64,000 nucleotides of DNA from Octopus sinensis (lineage: Eukaryota), in contig NC_043003.1 of the NCBI RefSeq assembly GCF_006345805.1, forward strand, positions 87,234,001 to 87,298,000. The letters run 5' to 3'. Made by a program: the position numbers. Positions 8,901 through 14,900 of the stretch are shown here, piece after piece; within the stretch, counting starts at the first letter, position 1, and every line of letters begins with the position of its first letter.

Positions 8901-11900
8901 GACCACCATCATGTACCGCATTTAGTATATGCTTATACAATTGGCAAGCCTATCTGAATGATTCACTTTGACATCTTACCAATTATAACAAGGTCACTGT
9001 CATATACTGCAGTTGCTATATGTTTATCCCAGTTCTCAGTTTTCACATCAAAGTGTTGGCATATTCACCAAGGGATGTAGAAGTCACGCAAATGGGTCTG
9101 TGAATTTATTGTGACTTTGCAAAGACTGAGCAACTAGAAATTATGTAATCAATCATTTCATTGTGATGATTATAGAGTGTACACTTAATAGAGTTCTAAT
9201 AAGCTTTTGTGAGTGGGAGAGAGGTTAATTAGGCAGGAACCTGTACAGTTAGTATCAAACCTTCTGTTTCTGGTGTGAATGCAGAGCTTTTGAGCCATTG
9301 CTAGCTTTTATGCTACTTATTTCCTCCTGTAGAGATTTGCAGAATATTAGCAACAGTATGGTTATTCTTTGAATTTTCTTTGGTATATTTTGAGACTTTC
9401 ACTTTGATTTTGCTTTCTTCCAATTTTTAAACTTTTGTTTTGTTTTGATTTGTTTATATCATTTTTTACTGTGTAATTAGTTTCTAGTATGTATTTATAA
9501 TTTCCTTATATGTAAAGAAACAGTTTTTATTTCATATTTCTTCTTATTTTCTGTTAACTTTTGTTTGCTTTTTAATTATTTTACAGTTGTTAATTCACTA
9601 TTTTCATCAAACTACATCTTCCCTCTATCTACATTTTACCTCTATCATCTTTCGAGTGGTATCTTTGAAATGCTGTTATTATCTTTCTATTTGTCCAAAC
9701 CCTTTGATTTACTTAACTTCTAATGTATTATACTGCAGCTGAAGTTTATAACAAGAATGACTGGTGTATTTATATCTCTTATCTTATTTTTAATATTATG
9801 CTGTTTTGATATTAGTTTGACCTAATGATTTTTTTTTGTAAGCTCTCCAGCTGGGTATTGTCCCTTGTAAATACTTTTAAAGCATCCGTGTAAAGGAGCA
9901 ATGTTAACCATTAATGGTTTTATTCAGCAAATTTTTTATAAGGTCAAAGCTTGACAAAACAATAACTAGAATAAAGAGTTTCCTTGAAACAATCCTCTTC
10001 TTATGAATACGATACTGGTTGTAATTATTGTCACTGCTTGCTATATATATCAAAGGGGACAAATTTTGTCTAGGTTTGTGACAACCAGGTACACATCATT
10101 GACAAAGCTCAAGAAAACTGAAATGCATTTGAAGTTATTGTGAGTCACTGCTCAGATGATGATTGTCTTGCTCCTGTATATAATTGTGCTTCTAACACAA
10201 GAAATTTTCTGTCAAGGAAAACCCACAGCAGCATGTTTTTCAATGGTGTAGATATGTTAAGTATGGTACACAATTGTCTATCTTTTCTTTCCCTTATAGT
10301 AAATATATTTGTTTTTAAATGATCAGCTATTACAATATTACAACAATAAACAAACAACAATTATGAAGATGATGATGATGATGATGATAATGATGAGTAG
10401 GAGGTTTGTTAGAAATAACAATGACCGACAACGATATCATTAATAATGCTGAATTTCTCTTCATGGTTGTTATCATACTTAAGAGACTATAATAACATGT
10501 AACAAGACTCAAGACACACATATACGCAAACACATATTGAAAGACTTTCAGATAATTAAAAAAAAAAAAAAAAAAATTCCGAAAACAAAAACAAAAAAAG
10601 TGTTATAATACCTGCAATAGTACACATTTATATATACATCATAAGTAAACATTAATATTTTAAGCTATCCCTGTTATTTATTATGCCTGACAGCTGTACC
10701 TTGACCCATTTTTCATCTGATCAAGCTTGATAGTCTATGCATCCAAGTGGCCCATCTGCCAACACCCACAGAACAAATGACTAGGTACACCATAGCTGAT
10801 TATACACAGGCCAACACTAAGACTGAGCCATCTTCAGACATTTCTGGAATCTGAAATGCAGTGGTCCTTTTTTGTCAAGATTTCCTTGTTCTCTATCATT
10901 CAGTCAGTGTGACAGGCGGTACATCAACTGGCAAATTCTGTAGAGAGTTAGCTGCAGGCAAAAAATGACGATATTCTCAATAAAGACTCTGAATGTCAAT
11001 GAGGATCAGCTGAACAACCTCTTGCAAAGAACTTTCTGGGACTATGAGCAACTACCAGAAATCACTTATCTGGAATGACTATGGATGACATTGCTAGTTC
11101 AAGATAAACTCTACAAACATGGTAGTGCCATCAACTGGGTCTAATCAAGTTTGGTGCTGAGCAGGGTAGCTGTTTTGCATACACCCATTTAATGTCAGAG
11201 GATTGATGCTAAACAGCTGTTGTCCAGTATAGAATGAAACTGGCTATTGACCTAATCTCTCATGAGGATCAGCTTCTGCCTTCTTTTGGCCAAGTAGAGC
11301 AGGAAAATTTCCCTTTATGTATGGTAGGCAGGATTGACATTGAAAAGACTAAAGGTAAACACTTTACTCTTCTTCCAAGCCCTCATCAATTTCTTCAAAT
11401 TTCACTTATAGAGGAAAATTACAGAAAGCACTTGCTAGTTTACTGCCTCATTTTGTTTTGTTATGGAGTTTAGCTAGGTGTTTCTTGTTTTATATTAAAG
11501 TTTGTTCTATTTTGTGTGGTGTGTATAATGTGCTATTTTGAAAAACAAAAAAGAATACAGGTGGAGTGGAACTGTAATCAAAAGTATTCTGGACATGATT
11601 ATCCCATCTTTTATCTTATACTATAACGTGATATTAAAAAATTTGGATTTTATTTCAGACAGATAAAACTGCAATGTATAAGATCCCTCCTGGTGTTACT
11701 GTAACAAATGTAGGAGAAACAGAAATAAAGGCTGACTGTGGGATCAGAGCTGAAGCATGATAGTGAGTAAAATTTTGCCTGTCATTTGGCTTTTTTTTTT
11801 TAATCTGCTCTTGAATATTAGAGTATGTAGCAGTAGCACCATCCTGTATATGTTGGCCTTATTTTAACTTTAAAAGACAATCTCATTAGTCTCCATAGAG

Positions 11901-14900
11901 ATTCTTGTCAAGCATTTCTGATTTTAATCAGTTGTCACAGTCTATAAATGTAAATCTGCCATATTTCCATTTACTTAATTATTTCTGAAATTCTCTTATG
12001 TTGAAGCTCTGTCAATAATGTAAATAATGATTTTTATCAATGGTGTAACACAGCTGTAAGGCCACGAATGCTTTTTAGAGCAAACAGTCTATAAATTAAC
12101 TCCTAGTATTTACTTAAGAGAGACAAGGTGTGGTTGTTGGCAAGAAATTTGCTTCCCAACCACATAGTTCCGGTTTCAGTCCAACTGCATGGTACATGGG
12201 CCAGTGTCTTCTACTATAGTCCCAAGCCAACCAAAGCCTTGTGAGCGGGGATTTTGGTGGATGGAACAGAAGGAAGCCAGTTGTGTGTGTGTGTTTGTCT
12301 TGACATTGAGAAATAGTTCTAAATGATTGTCACTGTCATACAAGCAGTATCATTCATTTCCAATATGCTGGAAGACTATGTCTGGCCATGGAGAAATATC
12401 ACCTTATTTGGAAACAGGTGAGGGCTGACAACAAGAAGGGCATCTGCCCATTAAAAATCAGCCTCAACAAAAGTCCATGGGCATATGACGTAGTGGTTAC
12501 AATAGGCATATGGTGTAGTGGTTAAGAGCACAGGCTACTAACTACAAGATTCCAAGTTCAATTCCAGGCAGTGACCTGAATAATAGTAATAATAATAATA
12601 ATAATAATATCGAAAAATACATTAGAAATCAGAACCCAGGTTGATGAAGGCTGGAGGGTATATCAGCCGAAACGTGTTAACAACAAACAAAATGAGGACA
12701 AAATCAGTCAAATGTAAATAATGTAAATTTTAAAGATATTGATAAAAGCAACTACAGTCTTTCGATCAGTGTTGGTTTATGTTCCCATAATTTAATGGTT
12801 GGACAAAAGAGACCAAAAGAATAAGTACCAGAGTTCAACAAAAGCTCTTGAAGGTAGTAACCCAGCATGGTCATGTTCAATTACTGAAACAAGTATAAGA
12901 TAAAAGATAAAATTATTTAGTAAAGTCAACTTAGACTCTCACATTGATATTCTACAAATTAGTGATCTGAAGTGAATGTAAGAAATCATTTTTCAGAATG
13001 TCGCTTCACTGGCACATGTAAAAAGATTCAAGCGAGGTCGTTGCAAGTGCCACCTGACTGGCCTCTGTGCCGGTGGCACGTAAAAGCACCCACTACACTC
13101 TCGGAGTGATTGGCGTTAGGAAGGGCATCCAGTTGTAGAAATTCTGCCAGATCAAGATTGGAGCCTGGTGCAGCCATCTGGTTCACCAGCCCTCAGTCAA
13201 ATCGTCCAACCCATGCTAGCATGGAAAGCGGACGTTAAACGATGATGATGATGAATGAAGCTTTGTCCAAAATATTTTTTATGGTACAAGTTAGCTATGT
13301 CACATTGTGTTCTGAGTTCAAACCCTTTTAAGATAGACTTTGCTTTTTGGGTCATTCTGGGATCATCATTCTCTTTCTTTTTCTCTTTTTTGCTTTATTT
13401 TAATGTTCACTTTTCTAGGTCAGATTTTGTTGAGGCTGATTTTTAATGGGCAGATGCCCTTCTTGTTGTCAGCCCTCACCTGTTTCTAAATAAGGTGATA
13501 TTTCTCCATGGCCAGACATAGTCTTGCAGCATATTGGAAATGAATGATACTGCTTGTATGACAGTGACAATCATGTAGAACTATCACTCAATGTCAAGAC
13601 AAACACACACAACTGGCTTCCTTCTGTTTCCATCCACCAAAATCCCCACTCACAAGGCTTTGGTTGGCTTGGGACTATAGTAGAAGACACTGGCCCATGT
13701 ACCATGCAGTAAAACTGAAACCGGAACTATGTGGCTAGGAAGCAAATTTCTTGCCAACAACCACACCTTGTCTCTCTTAAATAAATACTAGGAGTTAATT
13801 TATAGACTGTTTGCTCTAAAAAGCATTCGTGGCCTTACAGCTGTGTTACACTATTGACAAAAATCATTATCTACATTATTGACAGAGCTTCAACATAAGA
13901 GAATTTCAGAAATAATTAAGTAAATGGAAATATGGCAGATTTACATTTATAGACTGTGACAACTGATTAAAATCAGAAATGCTTGGCAAGAATCTCTATA
14001 GAGACTAATGAGATTGTCTTTTAAAGTTAAAATAAGGCCCACATATACAGGATGGTGCTACTGCTACATACTCTAATATACAAGAGCAGATTAAAAAAAA
14101 AAAGCCAAATGACAGGCAAAATTTTACTCACTATCATGCTTCAGCTCTGATCCCACAGTCAGCCTTTATTTCTGTTTCTCCTACTTTTGTTACAGTAACA
14201 CCTGGAGAGATCTTATACATTGCAGTTTTATCTGTCTGAAATAAAATCCAAATTTTTTAATATCACGTTATAGTATAAGATAAAAGATGGGATAATCATG
14301 TCCAGAATACTTTTGATTACAGTTCCACTCCACCTGTATTCTTTTTTGTTTTTCAAAATAGCAAATTATACACACTATCCACTTAAGCCACACACTTCAA
14401 ACATATCTATTCCCACCTCCTTATATAAACCATATTGGGTCCCACCTCAACACCAGTCATAGGCTATCTGTGATTTGTGGGACTTTTTAAATGACGCACC
14501 TAGTGAAAGAATTACCTTCAGTTTTTTTTAGTAGTGTGGCCTACCTAATGTCTCGCACAGTCTGCTTCAAGTAAAAGGTTGCCTGTGCTTGCTCTTCACT
14601 AACCACATTTTTACCAGTCTGTCTTCCCCAGAACTCACTTTACACTCCTCATATTTTACCCTGCAACTTCTGACCTACACATATACAAACTGCTGCGTTG
14701 GACACGATGGTTGTTCGCCTGGTATGTTGTTTTTGTTCATTCATTACAAATCTTGAATTATGCTTGCACTGAGGATTAAAGAGTGCATACCACTGCACTG
14801 ATTACGAAATCACAGGTGATATGCAGCTGAATTCTGTTTTTAAATGACTTGCTTTGAGAGTTGTATTCGGTACAATATGTTTATTTATTTTAGTAGTTTT

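What the first reader, a model, noticed from the sequence alone, without database searches (positions are those of the whole stretch)
11519..14375. ~950-bp inverted duplication that captures an exon and would sequester it in long dsRNA
Seen: unique sequence including exon 7 with both splice sites is duplicated in inverted orientation with few substitutions. Arms (954 and 951 bp) and spacer (952 bp) are almost the same length. Both arms carry the same TGA, so the duplication postdates that nonsense change (inference). Any transcript through the locus would form a ~950-bp hairpin, a strong ADAR hyper-editing or endo-siRNA substrate that could also force exon skipping or silence a paralogue in trans.
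Basis: partly seen in the sequence, partly recalled or inferred. Interest (0 to 1): 0.72.

Follow-up and report, generated by a model that had tools for sequence, protein, structure and literature searches.

The report
Young inverted duplication in repeat-rich DNA
A roughly 950-base stretch of repeat-rich, apparently non-coding DNA from an octopus-like genome has been copied in reverse about 950 bases away, so any RNA made across it would fold into a long double strand, but nothing shows that it holds a real exon.

Summary
The inverted repeat is real. The arms are 11519-12472 and 13425-14375, with a 952-bp spacer. They align over 955 columns with 23 substitutions and 2 indel events, 97.1% identity, far above chance. 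An RNA spanning the locus folds at -1870.6 kcal/mol against -623 to -721 for controls, with 929 of 954 left-arm bases paired to the right arm.

The "captured exon 7" is not supported:
- Its only open frame ends in TGA.
- The frame that would continue the one exon-like ORF upstream reads R-stop.
- Three exon-by-exon protein searches found nothing.
- Of 404 ORFs scanned against Pfam, the only hits at E<=0.001 were six: five domains typical of transposable elements and one further sub-cutoff match.
- Splice-like motif pairs of the same quality occur 82 times in the window.

The inner third of each arm is an old SINE, and the spacer is a mosaic of SINE fragments. There is no target-site duplication. 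The best named relatives of a LINE fragment in the window are from Octopus.

My reading: a young, probably neutral, local inverted duplication. It is a plausible ADAR substrate if transcribed, which is a known and common kind of locus in octopus.

The parts
11519..12472 (+). Left arm of the inverted duplication (954 bp). Homology to the repeat-family consensus runs on to 12478.
   Evidence: 97.1% to the right arm. One search shows 5 further bases that match the family-B consensus but are missing from the right arm.
12473..13424 (.). Spacer (952 bp), a mosaic of interspersed-repeat fragments unrelated to the arms.
   Evidence: 12677-12929 and 13007-13254 match many other window loci; spacer against the arms in both orientations scores 16-17, against a shuffle maximum of 18.
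13425..14375 (-). Right arm (951 bp), the reverse complement of the left arm.
11659..11762 (+). I read it as a pseudo-exon.
   Evidence: frames; TGA at 11758-11760. (82 comparable motif pairs in the window). (no Pfam match, no homologue).
14132..14235 (-). Mirror copy of the same segment in the right arm. It would be sense only for a minus-strand transcript.
   Evidence: It differs at 3 sites: P to S, N to K and one synonymous.
11519..12125 (+). Outer part of the arm with no other copy in the window. Its mirror is 13769-14375.
   Evidence: no hit outside the locus for 11001-12107 at word size 9, E<=1e-3.
12126..12292 (+). Old SINE head ('family A' in this report), followed by (TG)n. Its mirror is 13609-13768.
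   Evidence: about 10 other copies at 69-77% identity (for example 30588-30754, 54042-54208). Full-length elements of ~415-430 bp are seen.
12288..12478 (+). Repeat 'family B', truncated in the left arm.
   Evidence: copies at 28845-29071 and 51048-51238. In the left arm the match stops at 12478.
13397..13611 (-). Repeat 'family B' in the right arm. It runs 28 bp or more past the edge of the inverted repeat into the spacer.
   Evidence: 13397-13609 against 28845-29071; the alignment follows the family consensus down to about 13365.
12479..12612 (+). tRNA-like SINE head with an (AAT)n tail, abutting the inner edge of the left arm.
   Evidence: My own reading of the sequence. ARAGORN found no tRNA. 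Only the microsatellite has window matches. Treat this as an inference.
13007..13254 (.). SINE 'family D' copy inside the spacer.
   Evidence: 68-87% identity to at least 8 other window loci (383-621, 29487-29667, 25355-25533 and others).
11217..11354 (+). The only exon-like ORF just upstream (45 codons plus 1 base, CAG|...|GTAAAC). Its status as an exon is unproven.
   Evidence: No homologue, no Pfam match. 116 ORFs of 86 codons or more exist in the window.

Best explanation
This is a young, local, DNA-level inverted segmental duplication of about 955-960 bp. It lies in repeat-rich, apparently non-coding DNA of an octopus-like cephalopod genome.

Each arm consists of ~607 bp found nowhere else in the window, plus a much older SINE (a head, a (TG)n run and a 3' domain).

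The duplicate was placed ~950 bp away in reverse orientation. The likely route is a replication template switch or ectopic templated repair, and transposition is unlikely. The right arm probably sits in the ancestral context, because its SINE continues past the repeat edge. The left arm is then probably the derived, truncated copy.

Shown: the structure, its sharp edges, the absence of a target-site duplication, and the folding potential.

Inferred: the mechanism, the polarity, and that the locus is selectively neutral.

If an RNA is transcribed across it on either strand, the arms would pair into ~930 bp of near-perfect dsRNA. That would be expected to be hyper-edited by ADAR, as many such repeat-derived hairpins are in octopus. 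The 'exon' inside it is most likely a chance ORF with splice-like motifs.
For: Structure:
- 97.1% identity over 955 columns, with differences dominated by substitutions: 23 substitutions against 2 indel events.
- SW score 895 against a shuffle maximum of 17.
- Sharp edges: the flanks show no similarity in either orientation (scores 11-12, shuffle mean ~12), and the spacer is unrelated to the arms.

Age relative to the repeats:
- The SINE portions of the arms are 69-77% (family A) and 66-73% (family B) identical to the other family members but 97% identical to each other. The duplication is therefore far younger than the SINE insertions.

Polarity:
- The right arm's family-B copy follows the family consensus beyond the repeat edge. 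The left arm's copy stops at 12478.

Not a transposon insertion:
- The best flanking direct repeats are 4-5 bp with +/-8 bp of slack. That is what 115 of 200 random boundary pairs give.

No coding evidence:
-.

Taxon:
- A LINE endonuclease ORF at 22739-23125(-) has named relatives in Octopus bimaculoides (67% identity, 90% of the query) and Octopus vulgaris.

Folding:
- -1870.6 kcal/mol on the plus strand and -1882.3 on the minus strand. 929 of 954 left-arm bases pair with the right arm, and the longest uninterrupted helix is 155 bp.
- Controls: -623.1 and -702.9 for two neighbouring stretches, and -721.4 with the right arm flipped.

Literature (passages read; PMC5625713):
- Octopus has an exceptionally high hyper-editing rate.
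- Octopus has a high fraction (4.4e-3) of loci able to form long, nearly perfect dsRNA.
Against: - Polarity rests on a single repeat element at one junction. A later deletion in the left arm would give the same picture.
- A family-C fragment in the spacer (12775-12929) lies in the same orientation as the left arm's SINE head. Full-length elements have head, microsatellite and family C in that order, so this fragment could instead tie the left arm to the ancestral context.
- Arm and spacer lengths agree within 3 bp (954/952/951). The model treats this as coincidence.
- Absence of protein homology for 33-45-residue pieces is weak evidence. The word-indexed searches covered only proteins up to 2000 residues, and a 45-residue phmmer query needs roughly 50 bits to pass in a library of that size.
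- One sub-threshold Pfam match (TMEM132_C, E=0.006, 16.8 bits against a cut-off of 27) falls on ORF 11474-11623, which spans the left edge of the left arm. With 150 proteins scanned, about one such hit is expected by chance.
- Transcription, editing and copy number in the rest of the genome were not testable.
Confidence: 0.62

Rival explanations
1. The arms contain a genuine exon of a plus-strand gene. The inverted copy sequesters it in dsRNA, causing exon skipping, hyper-editing, or endo-siRNAs that silence the host gene or a paralogue. This would be an hpRNA-like locus born next to its progenitor.
For: - The hairpin potential is real.
- Acceptor-like and GTGAGT donor motifs flank a 33-codon open stretch in both arms.
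- An exon-like ORF lies 305 bp upstream on the same strand.
- Drosophila simulans has de novo hpRNAs made of inverted fragments of an exon of a nearby gene, for example Dsim-hp58 (PMC10317233, passages read).
Against: - The open frame ends in TGA, and the phase does not match the upstream ORF.
- No homologue in three exon-by-exon searches, although the database holds named Octopus proteins.
- No non-transposon Pfam domain among 404 ORFs of the window.
- 82 comparable motif pairs in the window.
- 2 non-synonymous and 1 synonymous difference between the copies.
- If the right arm is ancestral, the sense-oriented 'exon' is the derived copy.
Confidence: 0.1
2. Assembly artefact. The second arm is a falsely placed copy, for example the other haplotype or a chimeric long read folded back, and does not exist in the genome.
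For: - The near-equal lengths of arm, spacer and arm are odd.
- 2.4% divergence is within the range of heterozygosity seen in some marine invertebrates (recalled, not checked here).
- No read data could be examined.
Against: - The window has no N or gap.
- The arms differ mostly by substitutions (23 against 2 indel events), unlike raw long-read error.
- The arms lie in different, well-defined contexts with sharp junctions.
- Missed-adapter palindromes have no ~950-bp unique spacer (established knowledge, recalled).
Confidence: 0.1
3. The whole 2857-bp unit is a non-autonomous DNA transposon or foldback-type element with ~950-bp terminal inverted repeats.
For: - Long terminal inverted repeats with sharp outer ends.
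- The genome is rich in transposons.
- The outer 607 bp could be transposon sequence whose other copies lie outside the window.
Against: - No target-site duplication above chance, although the arms are only 2.4% diverged.
- No other full or partial copy of 11519-12125 in 64 kb.
- No transposase-like ORF in the unit.
- The arms themselves contain older nested SINEs that are truncated differently at the inner edges. That fits a segmental copy better than an element's own termini.
Confidence: 0.08

Closest known systems
Repeat-derived long dsRNA hairpins that ADAR hyper-edits in octopus and other metazoans (Porath et al. 2017, PMC5625713; passages read)
   Same: Two nearby inverted copies, about 1 kb apart, able to form a long, nearly perfect duplex within one transcript. 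Part of each arm is SINE sequence, and the octopus-like genome is one where such loci are reported to be unusually frequent.
   Different: Most described substrates are pairs of independently inserted repeat copies. Here the arms are a segmental duplicate that also carries ~607 bp of non-repeat sequence, and they are far more similar to each other (97%) than the SINE family members are (69-77% for family A, 66-73% for family B). Transcription and editing were not shown.
Drosophila hpRNA (endo-siRNA) loci made of inverted fragments of a nearby gene's exon, for example Dsim-hp58 (PMC10317233; passages read)
   Same: A long inverted repeat with a loop, young, and proposed to arise by local inverted duplication.
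   Different: hpRNAs are defined by Dicer-2-dependent siRNAs, a discrete primary transcript and arms homologous to a target gene. None of these could be shown here, and no coding homology of the arms was found.
Foldback or long-TIR non-autonomous DNA transposons
   Same: Long inverted termini around a non-coding middle.
   Different: No target-site duplication, no second copy in the window, and inner arm ends that cut through nested SINEs.
Local inverted duplications from replication template switching or templated repair (FoSTeS/MMBIR-type events; recalled from general knowledge, no paper read here)
   Same: Copy placed close by, in inverted orientation, with sharp junctions, little or no junction homology and no target-site duplication.
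   Different: The mechanism cannot be demonstrated from one haplotype of one species. No outgroup or pre-duplication allele was available.

Membership tests
Protein-coding exon of a host gene | Open reading frame in phase with neighbouring exons | tested here: not met
   Only the frame from 11659 is open (33 codons), and it ends in TGA. The upstream ORF leaves 1 base over, and the frame that would continue it reads R-stop.
Protein-coding exon of a host gene | Homology to known proteins or domains | tested here: not met
   Searches gave 0 hits. In one search the ORFs 11213-11470 and 11638-11757 matched no Pfam family. This is weak evidence because the queries are short.
Protein-coding exon of a host gene | Splice-site motifs beyond chance | tested here: inconclusive
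   The motifs are present. However, 82 pairs of the same quality occur in the window, 51 of them with at least 33 open codons.
Protein-coding exon of a host gene | Spliced transcripts | not testable with these tools
   No RNA-seq data were available.
ADAR hyper-editing substrate | Long, near-perfect intramolecular duplex | tested here: met
   929 of 954 bases paired arm to arm, longest helix 155 bp, -1870.6 kcal/mol. Controls: -623 to -721.
ADAR hyper-editing substrate | Both arms in one transcript, with clustered A-to-G mismatches in RNA | not testable with these tools
   No expression data were available.
hpRNA / endo-siRNA locus | Arms homologous to a target gene elsewhere | tested here: inconclusive
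   No other copy of 11519-12125 in the window and no protein homologue. The rest of the genome could not be searched.
hpRNA / endo-siRNA locus | Dicer-dependent 21-23-nt small RNAs and a discrete primary transcript | not testable with these tools
   No small-RNA data were available.
TIR / foldback DNA transposon | Target-site duplication flanking the unit | tested here: not met
   The best match is 4 bp with +/-8 bp of slack for the whole unit. At 200 random boundary pairs the best was 4 bp in 86 and 5 bp in 29.
TIR / foldback DNA transposon | Multiple dispersed copies | tested here: inconclusive
   No copy in the other ~61 kb of the window. The whole genome was not available.
TIR / foldback DNA transposon | Transposase, or termini of a known superfamily | tested here: not met
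   no Pfam match at E<=0.05 for any ORF wholly inside 11519-14375. The one sub-cutoff match, TMEM132_C on ORF 11474-11623, straddles the left edge and is not transposase-like. The termini were not compared with a transposon library because none was available.

The most novel reading that the evidence does not exclude
The locus is a newly born hairpin-RNA gene in a cephalopod. It would be transcribed from an unannotated unit. Its ~930-bp duplex would be processed into endo-siRNAs, or massively edited. Because a third of each arm is SINE sequence, its products would act in trans on SINE-bearing transcripts, or on an undetected progenitor of the unique 607 bp.
Probability: 0.06. Interest if true: 0.55.

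Novelty: new member of a known kind. Interest (0 to 1): 0.15.

Why it matters
As it stands, this matters little. Nearby inverted copies able to form long dsRNA are reported to be unusually common in octopus and are the usual non-coding substrates of ADAR (PMC5625713).

The locus is a clean example of a recent segmental inverted duplication, as opposed to two independent repeat insertions. It could serve as a test case for hyper-editing, or for how such duplications arise.

It would become interesting only if transcription, small RNAs or a progenitor gene were shown.

Tried and rejected
1. Six-frame Pfam scan of long stretches. I replaced it with stop-free ORFs. Of 754 ORFs of 40 aa or more, 553 had residue entropy of at least 3.6, and 404 had at least 3.75. 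Those 404 were scanned (150 + 150 + 104). The 350 lower-entropy ORFs (mostly microsatellite translations) and all ORFs under 40 aa were not scanned.

2. Identifying a host gene from the exon-like ORF 11217-11354 and from 'exon 7'. There were no hits, so no homologue was available to map exons by tblastn.

3. A more diverged extension of the repeat into the flanks, or a relation between spacer and arms that might explain the equal lengths. None was found.

4. Target-site duplications for the whole unit or for either arm as an insert. None above chance.

5. Rfam and tRNA scans for a structured RNA gene in the locus. The only Rfam match in the window is a 5S rRNA at 2937-3055, and there are no tRNAs.

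6. A directional substitution bias between the arms, which might point to an edited-RNA intermediate. There are 7 sites with C in the left arm and T in the right-arm complement, against 1 the other way, and 4 A/G against 2 G/A. The numbers are too small, and three of the sites are adjacent, so I drew no conclusion.

7. Not used:
- Genome contigs, which holds prokaryotes only and is irrelevant here.
- The phage, plasmid and E. coli collections, which are irrelevant.
- Structure prediction and complex prediction, since there is no credible protein.

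Full report
**1. Observation**

The repeat finder returns two collinear inverted pairs:
- 11519-12266 with 13628-14375: 748 nt, 98%.
- 12286-12472 with 13425-13611: 187 nt, 97%.

The pairs are interrupted only by a length difference in a (TG)n run. The arms are 954 and 951 bp and the spacer is 952 bp.

A global alignment of the left arm with the reverse complement of the right arm has 955 columns. It shows 23 substitutions (14 transitions, 9 transversions) and two indel events (1 bp and 4 bp), for 97.07% identity.

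With match +1, mismatch -1 scoring the local score is 895. Thirty shuffles gave a mean of 13.6 and a maximum of 17. It is the longest and most similar repeat pair in the 64-kb window. The window contains no N.

**2. Anatomy**

Only the outer ~607 bp of each arm (11519-12125, mirrored at 13769-14375) has no other copy in the window.

The inner part of each arm is interspersed repeat:
- A SINE head, which I call family A (12126-12292). About ten other copies lie in the window at 69-77% identity. Full-length elements of ~415-430 bp are at 30580-30989, 52261-52687, 54031-54449 and 39874-40311.
- A (TG)n run.
- A second module, family B (12288-12478), with copies at 28845-29071 and 51048-51238 at 66-73% identity across the two arms.

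The two arms are 97% alike across these modules, while family members are only about 66-77% alike. The duplication is therefore much younger than the SINE insertions.

The spacer is a mosaic of further repeat fragments:
- 12677-12929, family C/X.
- 13007-13254, family D, 68-87% identical to at least eight loci.
- By my own reading only, a tRNA-like SINE head with an (AAT)n tail at 12479-12612. ARAGORN finds no tRNA.

The spacer is unrelated to the arms, and the flanks are unrelated to each other in either orientation. All scores fall within the range of shuffles. The repeat therefore ends sharply on all four sides.

**3. Which arm is the copy**

I aligned both inner junctions with the two other family-B copies.
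- The right arm goes on following the family consensus past the edge of the inverted repeat, down to roughly 13365. It has two small deletions along the way.
- The left arm matches for 5 more bases (to 12478) and then switches abruptly to unrelated sequence.

The simplest reading is that the right arm lies in the ancestral context and the left arm is a truncated inverted copy with its breakpoint at about 12478.

Two things speak against this:
- A family-C fragment in the spacer lies in the same orientation as the left arm's family-A head, as in full-length elements.
- A later deletion in the left arm would look the same.

I hold the polarity at roughly 60:40.

The exact extent of homology also bears on the length coincidence. 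With the left arm running to 12478 and post-duplication indels in the right arm, the 954/952/951 agreement depends partly on where later indels fell. I treat it as coincidence.

**4. Mechanism of origin (inferred)**

No target-site duplication flanks the whole unit or either arm. The best matches are 4-5 bp with +/-8 bp of slack. Among 200 random boundary pairs in the window, the best was 4 bp in 86 and 5 bp in 29.

No ORF wholly inside the unit matched any Pfam family, so nothing transposase-like lies there. The one sub-cutoff match that touches the unit, TMEM132_C on ORF 11474-11623, straddles its left edge.

Sharp junctions, a nearby inverted placement and the lack of a target-site duplication fit a DNA-level event. 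Candidates are a replication template switch or templated repair. I recall that class from general knowledge and did not read a paper on it.

Substitutions (23) outnumber indel events (2). This argues for real divergence and against raw long-read error.

Divergence is about 0.024 per site. At an assumed 1-5e-9 substitutions per site per year this would be very roughly 2-12 million years. The rate is my assumption, and no cephalopod rate was checked.

**5. Is there an exon?**

It is preceded by an acceptor-like tract ending in CAG and followed by GTGAGT.

Frames:
- From 11659: open for 33 codons, then TGA.
- From 11660: three stops.
- From 11661: R-stop.

The only exon-like ORF nearby is 11217-11354, 45 codons between CAG and GTAAAC. 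It leaves one base over, so its continuation would be the frame from 11661, which stops at once. All searches were exon by exon.

Homology searches:
- phmmer of the 45-residue ORF against 1.84 billion representatives: 0 hits at E<=1e-3.
- Word-indexed searches against longer proteins (up to 2000 aa): 2 candidates each for the 45-residue ORF and for the 40-residue ORF over 'exon 7', and none scored.
- That database does contain named Octopus bimaculoides and O. vulgaris proteins, so the blank is not due to missing cephalopods. It remains weak evidence for such short queries, and for proteins over 2000 aa.

Pfam scan. 404 ORFs were scanned. They were chosen as ORFs of 40 aa or more with entropy of at least 3.75, out of 754 ORFs of 40 aa or more.
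- First 150 (1-22.7 kb), E<=0.05: nothing above a curated cut-off. Eleven sub-threshold matches appeared where about 7.5 are expected. They include TMEM132_C on ORF 11474-11623 (E=0.006, 16.8 bits against a cut-off of 27), Spo16_C on 10944-11075 and Exo_endo_phos_2 on 22266-22685.
- Next 150, E<=0.001: Exo_endo_phos at 22739-23125(-) and Mos1 HTH at 41021-41440(-) above cut-off. RVT_1 at 31172-31504(-) and Transposase_1 at 40738-40860(-) below it.
- Last 104: a PHD finger at 59990-60259(-) above cut-off, and PIF1 at 63540-63671(+) below it.

The matches that reach E<=0.001 are domains typical of transposable elements, with the PHD finger probably and the sub-cutoff PIF1 match only possibly of that origin.

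Chance expectation:
- The window holds 754 ORFs of 40 codons or more and 116 of 86 codons or more.
- Under the same loose criteria that 'exon 7' meets (YAG after at least 8 of 12 pyrimidines, GTRAGT 50-250 nt downstream), there are 50 pairs on the plus strand and 32 on the minus strand. Four of these 82 belong to the two arms.
- 31 + 20 pairs have at least 33 open codons.

The three substitutions inside the segment are P/S, N/K and one synonymous.

Nothing therefore distinguishes this segment from a chance pseudo-exon. The shared TGA is real, but calling it a 'nonsense change' presupposes an exon.

**6. What the structure could do**

An RNA covering 11519-14375 has a minimum free energy of -1870.6 kcal/mol on the plus strand and -1882.3 on the minus strand. 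929 of 954 left-arm bases pair with the right arm, and uninterrupted helices reach 155 bp.

Control folds:
- Two neighbouring stretches of equal length: -623.1 and -702.9.
- The same locus with the right arm flipped: -721.4.

If transcribed, this is a long, near-perfect dsRNA.

The window looks octopod. The named relatives of its LINE endonuclease fragment are from Octopus. Passages of Porath et al. 2017 (PMC5625713) report that octopus has an exceptionally high hyper-editing rate. They also report an exceptionally high fraction (4.4e-3) of loci able to form long, nearly perfect dsRNA, and that most editing lies in non-coding repeats paired with inverted copies. From a search listing only, PMC13282606 states that about 66% of the O. 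vulgaris genome is repeats.

In that setting the locus is an ordinary member of a known class.

The hpRNA idea has a precedent in Drosophila simulans, where de novo hairpins carry inverted fragments of an exon of a nearby gene (PMC10317233, passages read). Its defining features are Dicer-dependent siRNAs, a discrete primary transcript and a target gene. These could not be tested or were not found.

**7. What stayed unchecked**

- No eukaryotic genome, read, RNA-seq or small-RNA resource was available.
- Genome contigs holds only prokaryotes and was not used.
- Copy number of the unit in the genome, presence in related species, read support, transcription, editing and small RNAs are all open.
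- I did not open any supplementary files of the papers cited.

**8. Verdict**

- The hairpin potential is confirmed computationally.
- The exon capture and its regulatory consequences are unsupported.

The best explanation is a young, probably neutral, local inverted duplication in repeat-rich non-coding DNA of an octopus-like genome. It is a new member of a known kind and of low interest.

Noticed in passing
window 2937-3055 (+): Full-length 5S rRNA match (111 bits, model positions 1-120 of 120). It is the only Rfam hit in the window and sits in repeat-rich DNA. It could be a 5S gene, a pseudogene or a 5S-derived element. A weak sub-threshold GIY-YIG match lies just upstream at 2527-2691 (E=0.016).
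   Followed up: no
window 21484-23125 (-): Broken LINE fragment with endonuclease ORFs: Exo_endo_phos above cut-off at 22739-23125 and Exo_endo_phos_2 below cut-off at 22266-22685. The best named relatives are Octopus bimaculoides and O. vulgaris proteins. This is the basis for calling the window octopus-like.
   Followed up: partly
window 40738-41440 (-): Mariner/Mos1-type transposase remnant: HTH_48 at 49.6 bits, and a partial DDE domain below cut-off.
   Followed up: no
window 47017-47519 and 60336-60835: A second inverted pair, 511 bp at 94% identity, 13 kb apart. These are probably two copies of one transposable element. A PHD-finger ORF lies next to one copy at 59990-60259(-).
   Followed up: no
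window 38211-39025 and 61058-61828: Two tandem arrays seen as ladders of direct self-matches at 85-96% identity. Period and family were not determined.
   Followed up: no
window 26390-26573: A 184-bp stretch that matches its own reverse complement at 96%. It is probably a self-complementary simple repeat.
   Followed up: no
window 28136-29667: Dense nest of SINE modules: families A, B, C/X and three tandem pieces of D. It shows that these modules occur in several combinations, which limits how firmly element boundaries at the junctions of the inverted repeat can be drawn.
   Followed up: partly
window 14950-15120, 15445-15535, 3400-3700: Long microsatellites, (AT)n and (GATA)n/(GA)n, and a long trinucleotide run seen as homopolymeric ORF translations. 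The (AT)n tract lies 575 bp downstream of the right arm.
   Followed up: no
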